DNA of 64,000 nt from Escherichia coli. GTDB taxonomy: Bacteria; Pseudomonadota; Gammaproteobacteria; Enterobacterales; Enterobacteriaceae. Numbering within the stretch: the stretch's first letter is position 1; every line of letters begins with the position of its first letter. The notes beneath the pieces are model-generated. The model worked only from the letters and a program-made list of their open reading frames with translations. It ran no database searches and had not been told where the DNA came from. This document shows positions 1-36,836 of this stretch, piece by piece. Both the position numbers and the translations under genes were made by a program. Location of the stretch: NCBI RefSeq assembly GCF_011045215.1, contig NZ_CP049201.1. One strand, written 5' to 3'.

Positions 1-1048
1 TGGCCAGCGCTGGAGCGAAATCATCCCAGTAATACGCCAGAATCGTTGAGCCGATCACATTGCCCAGACCGACCCACCAGTAGTGCACCTGGCCTTCTAC
101 CGCGCGGTACATCCAGCCGGTTTCGCAGCCGCCAGCCAGCACGATGCCAAAACCAAACAGTAAACCACCAATTACCGCGTTTGGTCCCGCCCACATGATT
201 TTGGGTTCAACGCCTAACTGTACGTAACTGAAGATCCCGATGGCACTCACCGCCATACCGATAATGATTGCTTTCGCCATATGAGTACGTCCGGTGATCC
301 ACATATCGCGGAACGCCGAAGTAAAGCAGATTTGCGCACGTTCAATCAGTAAACCAAAGCCGACGCCAAACAGCATTGCCAGCCCCAGTTTGGGTTGGTT
401 CATCGCCGTGAGCAGCGCCCAGCCCAGCATGCCGAAAAAGACCAGCATCCCGAGACGAAAACGACGTCGCGCCTGATCCGGTTTTTGCGTCAGCGGTGAG
501 GCGGCAGAAACTTTCTGCATTTTCACGGGAATACGGAAGATGGGCAGCAGGGTAAAGCGCGCGCCAAACCATGAACCAATGGCAGTGGCGATGGCAAAGA
601 ACCAGGCATGCAGCGAGAACTGAGGAATACCGGTAAAGAACGCCGCCAGGTTACAGCCCATTGCCAGACGCGCGCCAAAACCGGCGATAATGCCGCCAAT
701 GATGGCCTGCATAATGCGGATACGGCTGCGCGGCATTCGCAGTTTGACATTGTTGGCCCACAGCGCTGCGGCAAAGCAGCCGCCAAACATACCGAGGATC
801 ATCATCCCGTCGATGCGGGTTAATGGCGATCCTTCCAGATGGATAATTTTAAAGTAACCCCACTCTTCAGCATGGACGCCGAACAGTTGCAGGAGCTGGC
901 CGCCCCAACGGGTAAATTCACCCGTGACAGCCCAAAAGGTGCCAGTAATGCCAAAATAGTAAGTGGAGAGAATACCCGCCGCGATGACCGCGGGGATGGG
1001 CGCCCAGAATTTAATCAACCAGGCGTGTTTGAATTGCTGCCATGACAT
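1..1048 (-). CDS. yedE: YedE/YeeE-family inner-membrane transporter (putative selenium/sulfur compound transport), partial: 3' end lies beyond window start
   Basis: Minus-strand translation from ATG at 1046-1048 gives MSWQQFKHAWLIKFWAPIPAV... and stays open to position 1 (C-terminal region ...IVLAGGCETGWMYRAVEGQVHYWWVGLGNVIGSTILAYYWDDFAPALA). Not in ORF track because no stop inside window. Synteny next to yedD/amyA. Confidence 0.85.
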   Translation of the reverse strand, partial: MSWQQFKHAWLIKFWAPIPAVIAAGILSTYYFGITGTFWAVTGEFTRWGGQLLQLFGVHAEEWGYFKIIHLEGSPLTRIDGMMILGMFGGCFAAALWANNVKLRMPRSRIRIMQAIIGGIIAGFGARLAMGCNLAAFFTGIPQFSLHAWFFAIATAIGSWFGARFTLLPIFRIPVKMQKVSAASPLTQKPDQARRRFRLGMLVFFGMLGWALLTAMNQPKLGLAMLFGVGFGLLIERAQICFTSAFRDMWITGRTHMAKAIIIGMAVSAIGIFSYVQLGVEPKIMWAGPNAVIGGLLFGFGIVLAGGCETGWMYRAVEGQVHYWWVGLGNVIGSTILAYYWDDFAPALA

Positions 1049-4046: not shown

Positions 4047-5453
4047 TTACTTGGAATTACTGTTGTTTTCGAACTGCTGCGTTAAGTAGCTGCTTGTGCT
4101 GTTTAACGAGGTCATTAAAACGTCCAGTTGGGTAAATTGTTCTTTGTAGCGCGCGACCTGCGCATCAATGCGATCGCTGGCGGCGTTGTAGTCTTTAGTT
4201 AATTTATTCAGGGTCTTACTAACGCCATCGGTAGCGGCTTTAATAATGCCCGTTGTCGAAAGCCAACTGGTCAGGTTGCTGCCGATGGTGGTCGTGATGC
4301 CGGTTTTTTTACCATCGCCAACAATCAATGCACCTACGCCGCTGGCATCTTTTTTCAGTGCAGCGGTGAGTTTGTCGGCATCCAGTTCCAGTTTGCCATC
4401 GCTGGGATCGGTCGTGATATCAATCTGCGCCAACGTTTTATAGCTGGAAGAACTGACGGTATTACTCAGCATCGATTTCAACTGCGTCTGAATCGTCCGC
4501 AGCGTGGAGTCGCCGAGCAGTGCGCCATTGCTAGAACTCTGGCTATCAGCTCCTGCATCTACGGCGGTGTATTTGGTCAGGCTGCTGAAGGTATCTATTA
4601 GCGAGTTATAGGCATTCACCCAGTCTTTAATCGCCGTTTGCGCTTTGGAGGTGTCCTGAGTGATGGTCAGCGTCTGGTTGCCCGTGGTGACATCGTTCAG
4701 GTTCAGGGTGATGTTTTCCAGCGCGTCGCTGATGGTGTTGCTGCTGTTCTCAATGGCGACGTTGTTGACCGTCAGCTGCGCATTCTGGGCGGCGACCGAG
4801 ACTTCCATGCCGTTGCTGCTGGCACTGGCGTCATAGCCCATAAAACTTTGTAGCGCATCATCACCGCTGACCGAGAGTGTCATCGCATTGTCAAGGCCGG
4901 TGTCATTTGATGTGACTGACAGACGATATTCACCGTTACCCACGTTAATGATGCTCGCACTTACGCCCGCTTTTGCGTTGTTGATGGCATCACGGATCCC
5001 GCTTAACGACGAGTTAGCCGCGCTGATATCAATGGTAATCGGATCTTTGTCGCCGCCTTGTTGAATGGTGAGTTTACTGTCGCTGGTGGCGATCGCCGTT
5101 TTCGTCTCGTCTCTGGTGGTGCGCGTGGTCAGGGTTTGCGCCTGCGCCAGATGGGTGACGCTGATGGTGTATTTCCCGGCGATAGCGTTTCCCGCAGTGG
5201 TGGCACTGAACGCGGTGGTGCTGCTGGTGGTGCTGGTGGCGGAAAAAAGATCAGCTTTAGACAATGCAGTATTGGCGGTCTGGAAAGTCGTCAGCGCGCT
5301 TTTCAGCGTACCGTAGGCGCTAAGTTTAGCGGTAAACGACGATTGCTGATTTGATATAGGGGTTAGCGTCGCTTTTTGCGCGGCGGTGAGGCTATCGAGG
5401 ATTGAACTTAAATCCAGACCTGACCCGACTCCCAGCGATGAAATACTTGCCAT
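4047..5453 (-). CDS. fliD: flagellar filament capping protein FliD
   Basis: 468-aa ORF, Ser/Thr-rich, divergent from fliC. Confidence 0.95.
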   Translation of the reverse strand: MASISSLGVGSGLDLSSILDSLTAAQKATLTPISNQQSSFTAKLSAYGTLKSALTTFQTANTALSKADLFSATSTTSSTTAFSATTAGNAIAGKYTISVTHLAQAQTLTTRTTRDETKTAIATSDSKLTIQQGGDKDPITIDISAANSSLSGIRDAINNAKAGVSASIINVGNGEYRLSVTSNDTGLDNAMTLSVSGDDALQSFMGYDASASSNGMEVSVAAQNAQLTVNNVAIENSSNTISDALENITLNLNDVTTGNQTLTITQDTSKAQTAIKDWVNAYNSLIDTFSSLTKYTAVDAGADSQSSSNGALLGDSTLRTIQTQLKSMLSNTVSSSSYKTLAQIDITTDPSDGKLELDADKLTAALKKDASGVGALIVGDGKKTGITTTIGSNLTSWLSTTGIIKAATDGVSKTLNKLTKDYNAASDRIDAQVARYKEQFTQLDVLMTSLNSTSSYLTQQFENNSNSK

Positions 5454-30084: not shown

Positions 30085-31259
30085 TATGCAAGCCTCACAA
30101 TATAGTTAAATGCGATGTTTTTTACGGTGTTTTCCGCGTTGCCATAAGCGGCAATGGTAATGGTGTGTGTGTGCGAACCAATAGCGAGCGTATGTGTATG
30201 CGCACCTATTGCTACTGTGTGAGTATGAGCTCCTGCGCTTAATACGCGATTACTTGCTGTCTTGCTTGTGTTAGTTGCATGCATTCCACCACCGGTACCG
30301 GGAGTTTCTGCGTATGCTGAAGTATTGTTGTAAGCAAAGTTGTGTGTATGTGCTCCGGTGTTATTTGTGGATTTAGTTCCGTAATCAAACGACGATGTGG
30401 TTTTCGTCCCCAAATCCGTACTGGATGCGCTGGCGCTGTGGGTGTGCGATTTAATGCCGTCCTGTTCCTGAGACAATACGGCTCGACCACTGGCTGGTTT
30501 GCCCTTAATCGTCCAGCCACGCATATCAGGGATCACGCCTGACGGATAAGCGGCTGCAAGTTTCGGGTATGCAGATTTGTCAAAAGTCTGCCCCTGCATC
30601 AGGGCATAACCAGACGGAACGGTATCTGATGGCCACGGGATTGGTGCGCCAGGCGGATAAAACTGCTCTGATGGCGTATAGAGTGAATAAACTGTACCGT
30701 CCGTTAACCCTTCCGGCTTATTAGCAGAATATGCTGGTGACGTATGAATCGTCACGCTGGCATTACTGGTATAATCCCATTGAATATTTACACCAGTCGC
30801 ATAATTTCCGATTGCAACGTAAATATCGTAAGTATCACCAGATGTATTGACCCAGGCAAAATTTGTAAACCCTGTCGATGTGCGCTGCCATAAAGCACCA
30901 GTAATCCCCTTCGGATTACCATTACCTGCACGCAAAACAAGTTCAGATATACCTGCCTGTTGAGGTGAACCGACGTTATATCCAGCCCCACCAATCAACG
31001 TAATTGAAACAACAGAACTCGCCTGCGGCATGGTTACCGTTGCTAATTTGAACCAACCAGCACCACCGCTAAATGACATAGTTGTTGAGTTAAGCGTACC
31101 AATATCTTTCGGTGTCAGTGTTATATCCGCTGAAAGCGCCTTACCATTCACCTTACGGGCAGAAGGTACGGTCTGGCAAGAGCCGCCCGGCAAACGTCCT
31201 GGCATCAGTCTGCGCTTTACTTTAAGCGCAATGTATTGCTCGGTTGCTACATCCCGCAC
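30084..31259 (-). pseudogene. tail fibre protein, C-terminal portion only (N-terminus deleted)
   Basis: 391-aa ORF with HTHT/His-x-His repeats ([24 protein letters not shown]) typical of fibre tips; reading frame runs into the portal fragment junction at ~31236-31259. Confidence 0.7.
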
Positions 31260-32030
31260 CCGCTGCTTTCCCGGCAGGATTTCTCGGCGCTGGCGCTGGA
31301 CTGGTTTGTGTTCGGTAACGCATTCCTTGAGCTTCGGAGCAATATGCTCGGCGAACCACTTAAATTACGGCACGCACTGGCGAAATACATGCGACGCGGA
31401 AGCGATCTTGAATCATGGTGGTATGTGCAGGATGGCAAGGACGCGTTTCAGTTTCGCCCTGGCAAAGTGTGCCACCTGATGAATCCGGACATTAACCAGG
31501 AAATTTACGGCATGCCGGAATATCTTGGAGCATTACTCTCGGCCAGCCTGTCTCATTCGGCGGACATGTTCAGAAAACTGTATTACGACAACGGATCCCA
31601 CGCCGGGTGCATCATCTACATCGGTGCAGCGCAGGTAAACCGCGAAAGCATGGACTCCCTGAAAGAAACGTTACAGGGTGCGCGTGGTGGTGGTGCGTTT
31701 AAAAACGTGCTCATCCACGCGCCCAACGGGGGCAAAGAGGGGGTGCAAATTTTGCCGTTCCAGCAGATCACCGCAAAGGATGAGTTCATGAATGTTAAGG
31801 CGGCATCCCGTGATGATGTGCTGGCTGCGCACCGCGTTCCGCCGCAACTGATGGGGGCGATGCCGGGCGAAAAAAGTGCGTTTGGTGATGTGGAGAAGGC
31901 CGCGCGGGTTTACGCAATTAACGAGCTGATGCCCGTCATGGAGGCTATGAAGCACATCAATGACTGGCTTGGCGAAGAGGTGATCCGCTTTAACCCTTAC
32001 GCACTGCTGGACACCCAGCCCACATCCTGA
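31236..32030 (+). pseudogene. portal protein fragment (P2 gpQ-like, C-terminal part)
   Basis: 264-aa ORF divergent from the tail-fibre fragment; portal-like sequence (…IYGMPEYLGALLSASLSHSADMFRKLYYDNGSHAG…); shorter than P2 Q (recalled ~344 aa); P,O,N,M,L and baseplate genes absent. Confidence 0.6.
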
Positions 32031-32560
32031 CGCGCTTCGCTTGTCTGCTGCTTCGCCGGGGCATAAAAAATTTATGCCCCGACTCTCCAGCTCCTGTATC
32101 AATCAGATAATTTCACGACGTCTTCCAGCTTATTGCCATCATCGACGGTCAGGCTCTTACGCAATCCCATCGCGCTGACTGCATGTTCTCGCCGCCTCAG
32201 TGCGATTTTGACGGCCTTATCTGCCACCCCATCAAATCAAAAGCCCTCACGTCTTTTTCACGCTCAGCGTGAGAAATACAGCCATTCTGTTGTGTTGCTG
32301 CGACATCGTTCAGGGGATGCTATTTATCCCCTGAAACGCGGGCTGTTCCCCCGTCACCTGCGCGCAGAAAAAACGCGTTTTTTTGTGCACGCACGGATCC
32401 TTGACGGATCCAGCCGCCACGGGGGCCGGAAGGGCAAAAAGTCGTTCAAAAAAATTGTGCAAATTTGTGCACTATCGTGCAGTGTGCATCGTGCTGTTTT
32501 CTGCGCAAAAAACGGATGGTAAATTTGTTCGTAGCAGGGAAATTTTAATGAGCGCAAGAC

Positions 32561-33091
32561 ATGAAGAAAGATTCATATCCTTATTTGATTTGCATGACTG
32601 TTTCAGTGCTAGGGATTATTTTCCTCTTTTACTGGTGGAGGGCAGATATCTACAGGATTACATATCTTAATTCGCGTATATCCAATTATTACATCTTGTG
32701 TAGTATGGGTATGTCCTTTTTCTTCTCCTTGTTTCTGGTGAAGAGGGGGGTAGTGAAGCAAAGTGGCTGGAAAGGACTGTCGGAATACCTGAAGGTTTAT
32801 GCTGGCTCTTGCATTCTTACAGGGATATTCCTGATTATTCCTCTTATGATGGTGACTTATTTTTTACCAGGAGTAACATCATCATATGTTGCACCGTATG
32901 AGTATACATCTGGTAGTTCAAGAAGCTGTTCCGGAGCGTTTGTTGATGATCCCGAACTGCATAAAAATATTCTTATTTGCTATCCGTATGGTAACTATGA
33001 ATATGACAATATTATCTATGTTGAAAAGAAAACTAATGCATTGGGCGTTGTTGTGACGTATGCACAGACTGCACGAGACGATGCTGAATAA
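32561..33091 (+). CDS. integral membrane protein of unknown function (hotspot cargo)
   Basis: 176 aa, about 3-4 hydrophobic helices then a soluble tail; AT-rich; preceded by TGTGCA-type repeats at 32455..32494. Confidence 0.55.
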   Translation: MKKDSYPYLICMTVSVLGIIFLFYWWRADIYRITYLNSRISNYYILCSMGMSFFFSLFLVKRGVVKQSGWKGLSEYLKVYAGSCILTGIFLIIPLMMVTYFLPGVTSSYVAPYEYTSGSSRSCSGAFVDDPELHKNILICYPYGNYEYDNIIYVEKKTNALGVVVTYAQTARDDAE

Positions 33092-33282
33092 GATACTACA
33101 GATATAGTCCACTTTTTTGTTTATTTGTCGGGATAAAAACAAATTACCCCGACTCACCATGTATTAATCTTCCGCTTTAAGTTAGTATTTTAGCTGCGCT
33201 GTCCTGCTATTCAGCAAAGCGGCGTACTTTAATGCGTCCTGTGCTTTCTGGAATTTAAGTGCATAGTCAGTGGCGATTTTTT

Positions 33283-33564
33283 CTAGTTCAGCGATTCGGT
33301 TGTTTTTGGTTTCCAGCCAATCAAGTAGCGCCAATACTTCAGGATCCCGACATCCAACACTGTTACGCGTGATTTTTCATAATGTTCGTCGGCAAGAGTT
33401 CGGCCAATTTTGAAATCTCCATCATCACCATAACCGGAGCAGGCATAAACAACCTGTGCTCCAGATATTCGCTGAATTGACATTTCCTCGCCGCAAATAG
33501 GGCATTTCGGTACTGGCACAGGTGAATAACGTTCACGTAATGCCTGATAGTTGATTTCGCTCAT
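33283..33564 (-). CDS. small zinc-ribbon protein (possibly frameshifted)
   Basis: MSEINYQALRERYSPVPVPKCPICGEEM...YACSGYGDD; an alternative frame downstream (to ~33182) reads as a coherent helical tail (DPEVLALLDWLETKNNRIAELEKIATDYALKFQKAQDALKY). Confidence 0.45.
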   Translation of the reverse strand: MSEINYQALRERYSPVPVPKCPICGEEMSIQRISGAQVVYACSGYGDDGDFKIGRTLADEHYEKSRVTVLDVGILKYWRYLIGWKPKTTESLN

Positions 33565-33627
33565 TAAGTCGTTCTCCTTGTTTATGTTCTGAGGTGGAGA
33601 GCAGGGCGAACTCGCCCTGATGTTGTG

Positions 33628-33929
33628 TTATTCAGGAAATAACGCCCGGATATTTCCGGCCATCTGACTGGTTATCTGTGCGGTTGATACTGGCTGTGAT
33701 GCGGGGCGTTCTGTCCTGGTTTGTGTCACTGATAACGCTTCATCATCAGCCCATGCAGCTAGTCGGTAAGCCTCTGCCGGATTCATTTTCAGAAGTGCCA
33801 GCCCGGCCAGAAAAGCCACACGTTGGCCGCTTTTGCGGGCTTCTGGTGTAAGGCTGTCCAGCCAGGCGCATGCTTCGCCTTCGTTCTTGACGGCGGCGGG
33901 CTTCAGATAGAAACTTATCCGTCTGGTTG
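33628..33929 (-). CDS. ParR/StbB-like partition adaptor protein
   Basis: From MTTPTRRISFYLKPAA...LDSLTPEARKSGQRVAFLAGLALL...NIRALFPE; resembles plasmid R1 ParR (RRTIAFKLNP...LDSIPQGERSRLNRAALTAGLAL...LRSLFPKE) from memory; lies directly downstream of the parM-like gene. Confidence 0.65.
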
Positions 33930-33943
33930 GTGTCGTCATTGGT

Positions 33944-34893
33944 TTACTCCTTGTCCATTGCGTACAGCCCATTAACCAGAGCAAACTGTGGCACCCCGTC
34001 CGCGATGAAAGTCGCATTAACTCCGCAGGCTTCGCGGATAGCGGGTGCCACAATCTCCGCCCCGCCACCGACAACCATCACCCGCCCGTAACCCGAAAAA
34101 ACCGCCAGCGCGCGGATCACGCGTTGTTTCAGTGTTTCTTCCTTTTCACGAATAACCGCCATCAGGCTGGCGTAATGCGCGTCATTGTGGATGTGTTGGC
34201 GCAACCAGGCTTCATCATGGCGATGTTCGATAATGGTATTGGCGATGTGGTGACTGGTACGCATACCGTTAGCGGCCATCACCGACAGCACGGCACCGGC
34301 CATCAGGGAGACGCCTACGTGTGGATCGCAAAACACCTGGCTGATACCTGCCAGTTGCCCCTGAACCTTTGCCACATCCAGCGTGGTTCCGCCTAAATCC
34401 ACAATCAGCAGGGATTCAAACGGACTCATGTCAGCCAGTGCTTTAAAGCCAGCCGGAATGGATTCAGGCATAACCCGCACGTTACGGATAGTGAATGCTT
34501 CGCCGTTCTGGTACTCCACCGGGCGCATAACGTTCGCTTTTTTGCGGTTGATGTTGGCCATGTCCGGCTGTGCGTTTGTGTCGAAATACTCGCTCAGTGG
34601 CAGGGTGACAACCACATCCACCTCCTGTGGCGTGATGCCTGATTTGACCAGCGTGTGATGAATGGCGATTACATTCACATCGCTGTACTGGTATTGCGTG
34701 TCGGTCGTCTGGACAAAGCGATCGCTGACCGGATCAAAACCATAGCGCACGCCATCAAGCATGTAGTTCGCGGGCTGCATGCCACCGAACGGCGCAGATC
34801 ATTCCGACTTGAAGCTGTTCGGGCTGATGGCGTTGCGGCGTTCGCCATTCTCAGTCCATGCCAGCTTGATGTTGGTGGAGCCGTCGTCGATAC
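33944..34893 (-). pseudogene. ParM/StbA-like actin-type ATPase with in-frame TGA nonsense codon
   Basis: MKICIDDGSTNIKLAWTENGERRNAISPNSFKSE-TGA(34799-34801)-SAPFGGMQPANY...; remainder matches ParM (VMPESIPAGF, IVDLGGTTLD, VMVVGGGAE); the stop replaces the Trp of R1 ParM KREWAVSFG. Confidence 0.75.
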
Positions 34894-34932
34894 AAATTTT
34901 CATGTCGCTTTTCCTTATGTTGATTAATTAAT

Positions 34933-35044
34933 CGTTTACGGGATTCTGAAATCCCGTTTTTGCCTGTTTTGTGTGCGCTTCATATATCGCGGCGCGTTTT
35001 TTGCTCATTTACGGGATTTGTGAATCCCGTTTCTGTCTGTTTTT
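34933..35044. repeat. two ~36-bp direct repeats, each with an internal dyad (acgggatt..aatcccgt), upstream of the parM-like gene
   Basis: tttacgggattctgaaatcccgtttttgcctgtttt (34933..34968) and tttacgggatttgtgaatcccgtttctgtctgtttt (35008..35044); candidate parC-like centromere/operator, or a remnant of a replication origin near the end of gene A. Confidence 0.5.
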
Positions 35045-36533
35045 TGTTTCCACTGGTCAGGCCACCCCGCAGCAGGTCTGCTTTGCGGCGGGCACGTTCA
35101 GTGGTTTCACTGATTCTCTGTGCGTGCTCTGCGTCGCGGATGGCGCGCAGCATGTCAGAAAGCACGGTAACGGGGGTTTTCATGGTGTTCTGGTCCTGCT
35201 GAAGTGTGGATGCCAGACGTGCGGCGGCTTCGAGGTCTGATGCCCCCAGCTGTTCCAGATAGCTGGCGACCGGGTTATGGCGGATCTCCGTGCTGCTTAC
35301 GCCGTGATTACGGCTCAGGCGCTGCCAGAGCTGCGTGATTCGGCTGTCCGGGCGGGTATCCGGTTTGCGTACAATTTCAAATCCCTGCGGTGCAATGATG
35401 CTGCCGTCAACGTACAGGCTGCCGCCCCGTAACAGGTGCTGCATCTGCTGTTCACCGATATGCATGCCGAGAGATTCGGCAGATTCCCGCCATTCTTTAG
35501 CGAGTAATTCGTGGTTATCAGGCAAAGGCCGCTGCTGTTTGCGGCTCTGTGTCCAGCTCTGCATTTCATCACTGCTGTTTTTTGCCTGTTTGTCACGCAG
35601 CGAACGCATCAGCGCCCGGCGTTCGTGCCGTTTCAGTGAGCGCACCCATTCATCCACATCAACGCCGTCAGGAAGCTGCGGCCACGGTGCTGGCCGTTCT
35701 TCCGGCTGTTCTGTCCCGTTGTTGTCCGTTTCCTGTACACGGGGACAGTTATTGCCACGAGTCCAAGGGGCGGCAGGGCCGCTCTGAAGGTCAAAACCAT
35801 TTTCGCGGGAGCTGTCTTCCGCTTCCGGTTTGCGTCTTACCAGCTTCCAGTTATCCGGATGCGTGCATACGCGGGAAGACTCCCCGATGAGCGGCGACCA
35901 GATCCCGTAAATCTGTACACTCTGCTCACCGTAATCGTTCAGTTCATCTGCGAGGTCGTAGGCGGTGCGAATCAGGTAGTCTTTGCGTGGAACAAGCACG
36001 CCACCCTGTTTTTCAATGTAGGTGGCAAAACACCCGGCATCAGCGGCAGCGAGTACCGCATCCATTGCGTCATCCTTCAGCCGTTGCGGGCCTTCCGGGT
36101 TGCGTGCCATCTGGCTGGCAAGGCGGCGCAGTTCACGCCACACCTGACGGGAGGGGATACCAAAGAACTGGAACTGGCGGACCCGGTGAAGGCGCGCCCA
36201 GCCGATGGCGCGTTCCACGCTCTCGGCCATTGATTTTCCGGTTTCGTGGTCAACGCGTGGCTTGCCCGTTTTCGGGTCGATGCCATCCACGGCGCGGCTG
36301 TCCAGGTTCTTTCCGATGTAGGTGGCGATGTAGCTGGTTGGCGTGCCTTTTGAGCCGTCGACGTACTCCGCCTTAAAACGCGGAGTTATGTCATCGCCCA
36401 GCTCGTGGCGGTCTTCCTGAATGGCAATATCGCAGACGTGGGACACGATGGTTTCAATCTCGTCCGGATGTGCAAAGACCATCATATGCCAGTGCACAGT
36501 GCCGTCATGGTGAGGCTCCAGCGGTGTATTCAC
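34980..36533 (-). pseudogene. replication initiation endonuclease gpA-like, N-terminally truncated
   Basis: 517-aa ORF begins within the region matching P2 A (LEPHHDGTVHWHMMVF vs P2 VEPHHDGTPHWHMMVF as recalled); the N-terminal part of a full-length A protein plus cox/B equivalents are missing. Confidence 0.7.
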
Positions 36534-36686
36534 TCAGCGAGGCACACCCGCCAGCAGTGTGATGCGCCAGCATTGCCGCAAATACGGAGGCCGGGGAGTC
36601 GTAATACGCCAGCAGTGATTCGCCATGCGGTGTCAGGCAGCGCAACGCCAGCCCGTGTGGTGTTAAGTCCACGCGGTAGCAGTCGT

Positions 36687-36836
36687 CTACTGTGAAATAA
36701 AGGGTGAGCGTTGTTCTTTAGCTGCCATTTCATCAATGACGGCTCGCTCTTCGAGGGACAGCCGAAGTGCCAGTCTTGGACCTGTGGCGGTGTTACGCGG
36801 AATGCGTGATCTGGTATCGTGAAGAACTTGTTTCAT
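36687..36836 (-). CDS. small ribbon-helix-helix-like ORF (49 aa), uncertain
   Basis: Manual translation MKQVLHDTRSRIPRNTATGPRLALRLSLEERAVIDEMAAKEQRSPFISQ: beta-strand/helix pattern of RHH proteins; lies between A fragment and the divergent repressor gene. Confidence 0.3.
   Translation of the reverse strand: MKQVLHDTRSRIPRNTATGPRLALRLSLEERAVIDEMAAKEQRSPFISQ

What the first reader, a model, noticed from the sequence alone, without database searches (positions are those of the whole stretch)
32455..33564. A-Q hotspot cargo: AT-rich membrane protein with upstream TGTGCA operator-like repeats, and a convergent Zn-ribbon protein that appears frameshifted
Between the portal fragment and the parMR-like genes is the interval where P2 carries tin/old-type accessory genes, by recollection. 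It holds a 176-aa polytopic membrane protein (32561..33091) preceded by ttgtgcaaatttgtgcactatcgtgcagtgtgcatcgtgc (32455..32494, four TGTGCA-like half sites). Convergent to it is a CPICGEEM...YACSG zinc-ribbon ORF whose downstream alternative frame encodes a well-formed helical tail, suggesting a frameshift. Small membrane proteins here are classical exclusion or abortive-infection candidates.
Basis: partly seen in the sequence, partly recalled or inferred. Interest (0 to 1): 0.55.

Follow-up and report, generated by a model that had tools for sequence, protein, structure and literature searches.

The report
Prophage membrane-protein moron beside cos repeats
A degraded P2-family prophage carries an intact, conserved membrane-protein gene of unknown function at the known cargo hotspot, while the "operator" repeats upstream belong to the phage's conserved DNA-end region and the zinc-ribbon neighbour is a dead gene.

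Summary
All three sequence features are present at the stated coordinates.

**Membrane ORF (32561..33091).** It is a real gene: dN/dS is about 0.1. It encodes three transmembrane helices plus a small C-terminal beta-barrel with two invariant cysteines. Its family is small and uncharacterised, with no Pfam, PADLOC, NCBIfam or PDB match.
- Divergent homologues occupy the same portal-to-gpA slot of Salmonella and Enterobacter P2-like prophages.
- A 79%-identical copy sits in lambdoid phages 434, 2B8 and mEp332, and in O157:H7.
- 998 of 5426 complete E. coli genomes carry a homologue.
- Its likely promoter is a conserved extended -10, TGGTAAATT (32517..32525).

**TTGTGCA repeats.** They are not a gene-specific operator.
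- The same triplet lies 107 nt from a cos-like motif in more than 90 viral contigs, which carry 49 different cargoes. Only 4 of 120 contigs have this gene.
- The TGCA cores sit at +28/+100/+110/+120 from the cos-like 19-mer. In P2, 186, PSP3 and the satellite P4 they sit at about +26/+98/+108/+120.
- They are most likely part of the packaging region.

**Zn-ribbon ORF.** It is an ead/Ea22-like pseudogene, with a 1-base deletion and a replaced 3' end. RefSeq already annotates it this way.

The protein's function is unknown. Superinfection exclusion at the inner membrane is the best guess, held weakly.

The parts
31236..32030 (+). 3' fragment of the portal gene gpQ (264 of about 348 codons), abutting a tail-fibre ORF on the other strand
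   Evidence: homology to the intact prophage L001 begins at window 31165
32057..32081 (+). Perfect 11-bp-stem hairpin after the portal stop codon (tQ-like)
   Evidence: I7; -22.2 kcal/mol, z -5.1
32340..32358 (-). cos-like 19-mer (GGTGACGGGGGAACAGCCC on the - strand; position +/-2 nt). It matches the P2 cohesive end at 13 of 19 positions, in the expected orientation
   Evidence: Read directly. CTGTTCCCCCGTCACC is conserved at a fixed distance in 93 of 115 contigs. It is followed by the same TGCA architecture as P2, 186, PSP3 and P4. Cleavage at this site has not been shown
32380..32389 (+). cos-proximal TGCA copy (TTTTTGTGCA), positional equivalent of TTTTAATGCA inside the 55-bp P2/P4 cos core
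   Evidence: +28 here, +26 in P2, P4, 186 and PSP3; for the 55-bp core
32455..32481 (+). Three phased direct repeats, TTGTGCA / TTGTGCA / TCGTGCA, at 10-bp spacing and preceded by CAAAAAAA. This is a conserved backbone element at the edge of the cargo region
32482..32495 (+). Two further degenerate copies (GTGTGCA, TCGTGCT), specific to this allele lineage and not conserved in 434, Salmonella or Enterobacter loci
   Evidence: 57% identity to 434 in this block
32517..32525 (+). Conserved extended -10 element TGGTAAATT (TGnTAAnTT in all gene-bearing loci). It is the inferred promoter of the membrane gene, with a predicted transcription start near 32532
   Evidence: The surrounding 65 nt are 82% identical to 434, while 60% of synonymous sites differ. 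Not mapped experimentally
32561..33091 (+). 176-aa membrane protein (WP_000711113.1): three TM helices plus a C-terminal 5-strand OB-like beta-barrel with invariant C123 and C140
33127..33153 (+). Weak hairpin downstream of the gene, conserved in position with phage 434 and carrying a compensatory change. Probably the degenerate terminator of the cassette
   Evidence: window z -1.0; 434 z -2.8
33182..33564 (-). ead/Ea22-like Zn-ribbon pseudogene. It has a 1-base deletion at 33346..33348, and its 3' part is replaced to the left of about 33195 by the cassette
33628..33941 (-). ParR-like 'plasmid partitioning/stability' gene (backbone-side neighbour)
33944..34903 (-). parM-like gene with an in-frame stop (W35 to stop) in this window

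Best explanation
The interval is the cos-proximal cargo slot of a degraded P88-like (P2-family) prophage. It holds three unrelated things. (1) The TTGTGCA triplet, with one more copy at 32380..32389, belongs to the conserved flank of the phage cohesive-end site. It sits about 100-120 nt from the cos-like 19-mer, as the ATGCA triplets do in P2, 186, PSP3 and P4. It most likely serves packaging, as a recognition site for the small terminase subunit (inferred), and it marks the last backbone base before the variable cargo. (2) Immediately after it lies a self-contained moron of about 0.7 kb, from about 32484 to about 33195; the piece shared with phage 434 starts earlier, at 32424, and so includes about 60 nt of backbone. 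The moron has its own conserved extended -10 promoter (inferred), a 176-aa gene and a weak hairpin. The protein is an inner-membrane protein, N-terminus in, with three TM helices. It presents a small disulfide-bonded OB-like barrel to the periplasm (inferred from the positive-inside rule and two invariant cysteines). The most likely role is a prophage-expressed envelope factor that blocks genome entry by superinfecting phages. This is an analogy only, and it is the weakest step. (3) Insertion of the moron replaced the 3' end of an ead/Ea22-like Zn-ribbon gene, which also carries a 1-base deletion and is dead.
For: Context: P88-like prophage, with cargo between portal and gpA. Rousset 2022 lists this very protein, WP_000711113, in P2-hotspot arrangements as 'hypothetical'. 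Repeats are backbone: phiT5282H, from another genus and with S8-peptidase/AAA cargo, has the identical block. At least 120 IMG/VR contigs carry the motif; 93 of 115 have the cos-like motif 107+/-1 nt upstream. The downstream 300 nt fall into 49 clusters, only 4 contigs carry the gene, and the first large ORF downstream is on the minus strand in 69 loci against 25. TGCA cores lie at +26/98/108/120 (P2), +26/32/72/98/108/121 (P4), +26/32/98/108/117/121 (186) and +28/100/110/120 (window, P88, phiT5282H and the Salmonella and Enterobacter loci). P2 against P4 is 28/32 identical at +1..32, 11/60 at +33..92 and 17/34 at +93..126. The small terminase subunits are only 37% identical, in line with the different repeat word. 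Gene: dN/dS 0.08-0.15. Homologues at 55-65% identity sit in the same slot and orientation in Salmonella and Enterobacter P2-like prophages. A 79% homologue, with homologous flanks from 32424 to about 33200, sits in 434, mEp332, 2B8 and O157:H7. TGnTAAnTT is conserved in all gene-bearing loci. Protein: three TM segments and family-wide loop charges; models with pLDDT 77 and 91.5; invariant C123, C140 and G162 in 28 members. Pseudogene.
Against: No experiment or transcript supports the promoter, and the sigma-70 consensus scan finds none in 32000..33700. The cos assignment rests on similarity and architecture only. The one linear P88-like record (P88_4B11) ends elsewhere, at a position equivalent to window 32437/32438. 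The triplet lies outside the 55-bp core that the literature defines as the shared P2/P4 cos, so a packaging role is an inference. The proximal repeat is kept upstream of the gene even where the array is reduced to one copy, and in 434, so some role in expression is not excluded. For function there is no homology to any known exclusion or defence protein. Distant family members sit among ordinary chromosomal genes, which argues against an exclusively anti-phage role.
Confidence: 0.6

Rival explanations
1. The TGTGCA repeats are an operator for the membrane gene, bound by the prophage C-type repressor or by the neighbouring Zn-ribbon protein, so that the gene is regulated with immunity.
For: The repeats lie 66-106 nt upstream of the ATG, phased at 10 bp. 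The proximal copy is invariant in all gene-bearing loci, including 434 and the loci with a single copy. In phage 434 the curators annotated two of the repeats as a CII-type TTGY-N6-TTGY site.
Against: The array is kept perfectly in phages without the gene, next to 49 other cargo types, mostly on the opposite strand. It keeps a fixed distance to the cos-like motif and mirrors the repeats of P2, 186, PSP3 and P4. It lies upstream of the -35 position of the conserved -10, about -77 to -51, not over the promoter. The Zn-ribbon gene is dead here. P2-family phages have no CII.
Confidence: 0.07
2. The membrane protein is an abortive-infection effector. It would be a stand-alone relative of the membrane-plus-beta-domain effectors of CBASS (S-2TM-beta type) that permeabilises the inner membrane when triggered by infection.
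For: Foldseek against AFDB50 gives weak whole-chain matches (TM 0.55-0.65, E about 1e-8) to roughly 190-aa uncharacterised proteins, one of them annotated as a SMODS-associating 2TM beta-strand-rich effector. The P2 hotspot is rich in intracellular defence systems. One distant homologue lies beside DUF4062-TPR (NLR-like) genes and an Apyc1-like gene.
Against: No member matches the Pfam family, and there is no PADLOC hit. No cyclase or sensor gene lies nearby. Three TM helices and an invariant cysteine pair point to a periplasmic domain, not a cytoplasmic one. The gene is tolerated in 18% of E. coli genomes as a single gene with an apparently constitutive promoter.
Confidence: 0.15
3. The membrane protein is an envelope or lysogenic-conversion factor unrelated to phage resistance. 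Examples would be immunity to a pore-forming bacteriocin or to a periplasm-acting T6SS/CDI toxin, or a stress or colonisation factor. It would simply ride in phage accessory slots.
For: Distant homologues are single genes among metabolic or regulatory chromosomal genes, with no phage genes nearby. The size and TM count resemble small inner-membrane immunity proteins (own knowledge). The gene stays intact, with an identical protein, in a prophage that has lost its portal N-terminus, parM and the gpA N-terminus, which suggests benefit to the host.
Against: There is no cognate toxin gene in any context examined and no homology to known immunity families. The closer homologues (51-79% identical) whose contexts were examined all sit in prophage accessory slots.
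Confidence: 0.25
4. The repeat triplet is conserved backbone but does not serve packaging. It could be a bent-DNA/UP-type element or outward promoter for whatever cargo follows, a weak terminator for cargo transcribed towards cos, or a preferred recombination joint.
For: In P2 the annotated old-tin mRNA starts lie just beyond the third repeat, and a TTGAAT -35-like hexamer sits in that repeat. On the minus strand, repeats 1-2 form a 5-bp hairpin followed by a T-run. Cargo diverges immediately after repeat 3. The A-tracts are phased.
Against: The satellite P4 depends on P2's terminase for packaging. Apart from the 55-bp cos core, the TGCA positions are the only thing it shares with P2 in the cos flank examined here. 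Most cargo is on the opposite strand, so an outward promoter is not generally needed. The hairpin is very weak.
Confidence: 0.2

Closest known systems
P2 old/tin locus and the P2-like cos-proximal defence hotspot (Rousset et al. 2022, PMC9122126)
   Same: Same genomic slot, between portal/cos and gpA. The cargo is variable, AT-rich and transcribed away from cos. This exact protein accession appears in their Table S5A arrangements.
   Different: The protein is listed only as 'hypothetical'. It was not found among the systems they describe testing (main text) or in the stored part of their tables, and it has no similarity to Old, Tin or any PADLOC model.
Phage 434 CPT_434_36 'putative membrane protein' (also mEp332, 2B8, and O157:H7 WP_000120056)
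   Same: 79% identical protein of the same length. The upstream region (77% identical from 32424), the extended -10 and the downstream hairpin are all homologous.
   Different: It sits in a lambdoid early-left region, between xis and exo, not next to a P2 cos. The two distal repeats have decayed there (TTTACGCA, TTTGTGTA). The 434 copy carries about 60 nt of P88-type backbone at its 5' end, which suggests capture from a P2-like phage.
P22 SieA (inner-membrane superinfection exclusion protein; PMC10461980)
   Same: A single prophage gene with its own promoter. Its product is an inner-membrane protein of about 164 aa with three predicted TM helices.
   Different: No detectable sequence relationship (hhalign probability 0.2%). 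The layout also differs: SieA has a soluble loop between TM1 and TM2 and no C-terminal beta-barrel.
The 55-bp P2/P4 cos core (Ziermann and Calendar 1990, as cited in PMC5694545) and lambda cosB as a functional analogue
   Same: A cos-like 19-mer followed at +26/+28 by a T-run-TGCA word, as in the core. The phased repeats lie on one side of the cleavage site, as the terminase-binding R sites do in lambda cosB (own knowledge).
   Different: The +98..+124 triplet lies outside the defined 55-bp core. I found no description of it, and no binding data exist. The repeat word here is GTGCA rather than ATGCA.
SMODS-associating 2TM beta-strand-rich effectors of CBASS
   Same: N-terminal TM helices plus a small all-beta C-terminal domain, with a weak Foldseek match.
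   Different: Three TM helices rather than two, no Pfam match, no cyclase partner, and a domain predicted to be periplasmic.
ead/Ea22-like family (phrog_368), for the Zn-ribbon ORF
   Same: The N-terminal CxxC...C Zn-ribbon and coiled-coil region match. The intact 196-aa orthologue is gp56 of P88_4B11.
   Different: Here the gene is frameshifted and lacks about the last 70 codons. PGAP already flags it as a pseudogene.

Membership tests
P2-like cos-proximal hotspot cargo | Located between portal gpQ/cos and replication gene gpA of a P2-family prophage | tested here: met
P2-like cos-proximal hotspot cargo | Content varies between otherwise similar phages | tested here: met
   49 downstream clusters among 115 contigs; P88, P88_4B11 and phiT5282H carry other cargo
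P2-like cos-proximal hotspot cargo | Confers anti-phage activity | not testable with these tools
   Needs a phage challenge
Moron (independent transcription unit in a prophage) | Composition differs from the flanks, and the unit is present or absent between relatives | tested here: met
   38% GC against 52-55%; absent from P88 and P88_4B11
Moron (independent transcription unit in a prophage) | Own promoter and terminator | tested here: inconclusive
   Conserved extended -10, but the consensus scan finds no promoter. The hairpin is conserved in position but weak here
SieA-type inner-membrane exclusion proteins | Sequence homology to P22 SieA | tested here: not met
SieA-type inner-membrane exclusion proteins | Small polytopic inner-membrane protein encoded by a single prophage gene | tested here: met
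   (prediction only)
SieA-type inner-membrane exclusion proteins | Blocks DNA entry of superinfecting phage | not testable with these tools
   -
CBASS S-2TM-beta effector | Match to the family profile | tested here: not met
   No Pfam hit in any of 28 members; only a weak Foldseek hit
CBASS S-2TM-beta effector | Adjacent CD-NTase (SMODS) gene | tested here: not met
   None in any context
Operator of the membrane gene | Repeats co-occur with the gene they control | tested here: not met
   Only 4 of 120 repeat-bearing contigs have the gene
Lambda CII-dependent promoter (annotation in phage 434) | TTGY-N6-TTGY straddling a -35, with a -10 about 12-14 nt downstream, in a phage that has cII | tested here: inconclusive
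   The TTGT-N6-TTGT pattern is present. No conserved -10 lies at that spacing, and P2-family phages lack cII (own knowledge)
P2-family cos region | 19-nt G+C-rich cohesive-end sequence related to GGCGAGGCGGGGAAAGCAC, on the portal side of the cargo | tested here: met
   13/19 at 32340..32358; conserved in 93 of 115 contigs
P2-family cos region | Flank architecture: a TGCA word at about +26 and three phased TGCA words at about +98/+108/+120 | tested here: met
   This is a feature I derived here from P2, P4, 186 and PSP3, not a published definition
P2-family cos region | Cleavage by terminase at this site | not testable with these tools
   The P88_4B11 record termini fall elsewhere
ead/Ea22-like family | Profile match and an intact reading frame | tested here: not met
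   phrog_368 matches the N-terminal part, but the frame is broken and the 3' end is missing: a pseudogene

The most novel reading that the evidence does not exclude
The 3TM-plus-periplasmic-OB-barrel protein founds a new family of single-gene superinfection-exclusion (or other anti-phage) determinants. It would be shared by P2-like and lambdoid prophages, including classical phage 434 and O157:H7 prophages, and present in about 18% of E. coli genomes. Alongside this, the TGCA triplet at +98/+108/+120 would be the so far undescribed terminase-recognition element of the P2 family. That would explain why the defence hotspot begins at exactly that base.
Probability: 0.25. Interest if true: 0.6.

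Novelty: new member of a known kind. Interest (0 to 1): 0.38.

Why it matters
If the protein blocks phage entry, it would be a very common, unrecognised resistance determinant in E. coli, Shigella and Salmonella prophages. It would also assign a function to an unannotated gene of the classical phage 434.

The repeat result matters to people who mine the P2/P4 hotspot. The conserved triplet gives a base-precise left boundary for cargo. It also suggests that the packaging signal of P2-family phages extends about 125 nt from cos, which bears on helper-satellite specificity and on designing cos-based transducing vectors.

None of this overturns current understanding.

Tried and rejected
**Protein searches with no result**
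- Pfam found nothing significant, for the window protein or for any of 28 family members.
- NCBIfam and PADLOC found nothing.
- PHROGs gives only phrog_1416, 'unknown function'.
- Homology to P22 SieA is rejected.

**DNA-level ideas**
- Rfam shows only a sub-threshold gyrA-RNA hit on the portal hairpin.
- The canonical sigma-70 scan finds no site in 32000..33700.
- An Ogr/Delta-type TGT-N12-ACA late-promoter site is not present in the repeats (read).
- The repeats as the parC centromere of the adjacent ParMR genes: dropped, because phiT5282H, P2, 186 and P4 keep the same architecture at the same distance from cos, and no ParMR gene is seen in their regions examined.
- Programmed frameshift in the Zn-ribbon gene: rejected, because the intact relative simply has one more C, and the 3' end is replaced as well.
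- The P88_4B11 record termini as the true cos: not adopted. That placement would put the repeats at +19/+29/+39, unlike any defined P2-family cos.
- Direct alignment to the P2 cos junction gave only a short match plus an unexpected inverted 52-nt similarity.

**Literature**
- No characterisation of the gene was found.
- The sequence was not found in the stored part of Rousset Table S5B.
Full report
**Observation.**
- The 40-nt string is at 32455..32494.
- The 176-aa ORF is at 32561..33091.
- The convergent CPICGEEM ORF is at 33283..33564 (-), and a 50-aa alternative-frame continuation lies at 33182..33334 (-).
- TGTGCA occurs four times in 105 nt on one strand. The whole window has 23 occurrences on both strands, fewer than the 54 expected from shuffles. 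The cluster is not chance.

**Context.** The region is 98% identical to P88-like (Xuanwuvirus, P2-family) prophages of many E. coli strains. There the gene order is terminase, portal, [hypothetical], ead/Ea22-like pseudogene, ParR-like, ParM, gpA. Sequenced P88-like phages share the first ~440 nt after the portal (up to about 32483) and the ead/ParR side (from about 33195), but not the part between.

This is the portal-to-gpA hotspot described by Rousset et al. 2022. Their Table S5A lists this exact protein, WP_000711113, as 'hypothetical'.

The prophage in the window is a wreck:
- homology to an intact relative starts inside the portal gene, at 31165;
- a 1361-bp deletion removes the 5' part of gpA;
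- parM has a W35 stop.

Even so, the membrane protein is identical to that of the intact relative. The ORF has 1 synonymous difference in 531 nt, while the flanks differ by 1.9-3.9%.

**The Zn-ribbon ORF.** Alignment with the intact 196-aa gene of phage P88_4B11 shows one missing C in a C-run (window 33346..33348). Homology is lost to the left of about 33195, so roughly the last 70 codons are replaced. PGAP already annotates the orthologous locus as 'ead/Ea22-like, frameshifted, missing C-terminus'. It is a pseudogene, not a programmed frameshift.

**The membrane gene is real and mobile.** dN/dS against four homologues is 0.08-0.15, with synonymous sites near saturation. Homologues were found in three settings.
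1. Homologues 65%, 55% and 56% identical in Salmonella and Enterobacter all sit between the portal and gpA of different P2-like prophages, in the same orientation.
2. A 79%-identical copy lies in lambdoid phages 434, mEp332 and 2B8 and in an O157:H7 prophage at att-lambda, between xis and exo. It is annotated 'putative membrane protein'.
3. More distant members are single chromosomal genes. One lies beside NLR-like DUF4062-TPR genes, the others among ordinary genes.

In all, 998 of 5426 complete E. coli genomes carry a homologue: 76 have this allele and 918 have the 434-type allele. An exhaustive profile search of 1.84 billion representatives finds only 57 related clusters. Foldseek hits extend the family to Pseudomonas.

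**The protein.** It has three hydrophobic segments. Across 28 members, the loop between TM2 and TM3 has a net charge of +3.6 and the N-terminus +1.4. This gives an N-in topology with the C-terminal ~72 residues outside.

AlphaFold gives three helices plus a five-strand barrel (pLDDT 77 for the whole chain, 91.5 for the domain alone). C123 and C140 are invariant. They flank the beta2-beta3 hairpin, which fits a periplasmic disulfide (inference).

**The repeats are not the gene's operator.**
- Enterobacter phage phiT5282H belongs to another genus and carries an S8-peptidase/AAA cargo on the opposite strand. Its repeat block, CAAAAAAATTGTGCAAATTTGTGCACTATCGTGCA, is identical to the window's, while the surrounding region is only 76% identical.
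In 93 of 115 of them a conserved CTGTTCCCCCGTCACC lies 107+/-1 nt upstream.
- Sequence diverges immediately after the third repeat into 49 clusters. Only 4 loci carry the membrane gene. The first large ORF is more often on the minus strand, 69 against 25.

**Relation to the cos site.** The conserved upstream motif matches the P2 cohesive end at 13 of 19 positions, in the orientation expected from the portal gene. I measured TGCA cores from the inner edge of the cos 19-mer.

| Phage or locus | TGCA core positions |
|---|---|
| P2 | +26, 98, 108, 120 |
| P4 | +26, 32, 72, 98, 108, 121 |
| 186 | +26, 32, 98, 108, 117, 121 |
| PSP3 | +26, 32, 98, 108, 117 |
| Window, P88, phiT5282H, Salmonella and Enterobacter loci | +28, 100, 110, 120 |

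P4 depends on P2's terminase for packaging. P2 against P4 is 28/32 identical at +1..32, unrelated at +33..92 (11/60), and similar again at +93..126 (17/34).

The first word lies inside the published 55-bp P2/P4 cos core. The triplet lies outside it. The small terminase subunits of P2 and the P88-like phage are only 37% identical, in line with a changed word (ATGCA to GTGCA).

I infer that the triplet is part of the extended packaging signal. This has not been shown, and I did not find it described. Two caveats apply. The only linear P88-like record ends at a position equivalent to 32437/32438, not at the cos-like motif. In P2 the old-tin transcript starts just beyond the third repeat, so a promoter-context role is possible.

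**What drives the gene.** All gene-bearing loci share TGnTAAnTT, 35-41 nt upstream of the ATG (window 32517..32525, TGGTAAATT), plus an SD-like GAG/GGAG about 8-9 nt before the start. This holds for 434 and for Salmonella loci that retain only one repeat. A stop codon at 32549..32551 fixes the ATG at 32561 as the start.

The 65 nt from 32496 to 32560 are 82% identical to 434, although 60% of synonymous sites differ. This non-coding stretch is therefore constrained. The two extra 'half sites' at 32482..32495 are lineage-specific (57% identity to 434). The consensus sigma-70 scan finds nothing, as expected for a promoter with a poor -35.

**Origin of the 434 copy.** Homology between the window and 434 runs from 32424 to about 33200. 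The first ~60 nt of that stretch are P88-type backbone, also present in phiT5282H and P88 without the gene. In 434 the two distal repeats have decayed. This suggests that the lambdoid cassette was captured from a P2-like hotspot, not the reverse (inference).

**Verdict.** The finding combines a conserved but uncharacterised prophage membrane-protein moron, a piece of the phage's cos flank, and a known pseudogene.
- The operator reading fails.
- The hotspot-cargo reading holds.
- The exclusion function is plausible by analogy only; I put it at roughly one in three.

Interest is moderate. The gene is common and untested and sits in a famous phage, and the repeat architecture is a tidy, testable observation about P2-family packaging.

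Noticed in passing
window 31165..36706: The P88-like prophage is a remnant. Homology to an intact relative starts inside the portal gene, next to a tail-fibre ORF on the other strand. A 1361-bp deletion removes the 5' part of gpA, and parM carries a W35 stop. The membrane ORF differs from the intact relative by a single synonymous base, while the flanks differ by 1.9-3.9%.
   Followed up: partly
window 32437/32438 (equivalent to the ends of NC_049391.1): The linear record of phage P88_4B11 begins and ends between GGAAGGGCA and AAAA, about 80 nt to the right of the cos-like 19-mer. I could not tell whether these are real termini or an arbitrary linearisation.
   Followed up: partly
window 32174..32225: A 52-nt stretch is about 77% identical to P2 positions 37..90 (between cosL and the Q terminator), but in the inverted orientation relative to the portal gene. 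It overlaps a 42-aa minus-strand ORF (32099..32227) that is annotated as a hypothetical protein in P88 and P88_4B11.
   Followed up: no
window 32060..32089 and 33130..33159: The hairpin after the portal gene and the hairpin after the membrane gene are 73% identical direct repeats sharing CCCCGACTC. By my rough estimate this is borderline for chance (E about 0.4).
   Followed up: partly
window 33628..34903; Rousset 2022 Table S5B: The ParM/ParR-like pair next to the cargo is listed there as 'system 1', the most frequent content of the P2 hotspot (4592 occurrences). A plasmid-type segregation module is thus near-universal in these integrated phages, and its centromere was not located.
   Followed up: no
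L018, L020-L023, L025 (Salmonella P2-like prophages), about 4100..4890: In several Salmonella loci two further small same-strand ORFs (81 or 123 aa, and 119 aa, no Pfam) lie between the portal and the membrane gene. In these loci the repeat array is reduced to two copies or one.
   Followed up: no
L010-L013 (metagenome contigs): A 42%-identical family member lies next to two large DUF4062-AAA-TPR (NLR-like) genes. In some contigs there is also a metallo-beta-lactamase with an Anti-Pycsar Apyc1 hit. This looks like a defence-island setting.
   Followed up: no
protein P0102 (3074 aa): A giant repetitive surface-type protein matches residues 125-166 of the family profile in 11 repeats (CDGVVCTLPITNW...). 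This may be a distant relative of the cysteine-bracketed hairpin, or an effect of the repetitive composition.
   Followed up: no
L006 2392..2562 (phage 434): Phage 434 has an annotated 56-aa 'putative membrane protein' ORF just upstream of the cassette, on the same strand and overlapping the P88-type backbone stub. It has no counterpart in the window.
   Followed up: no
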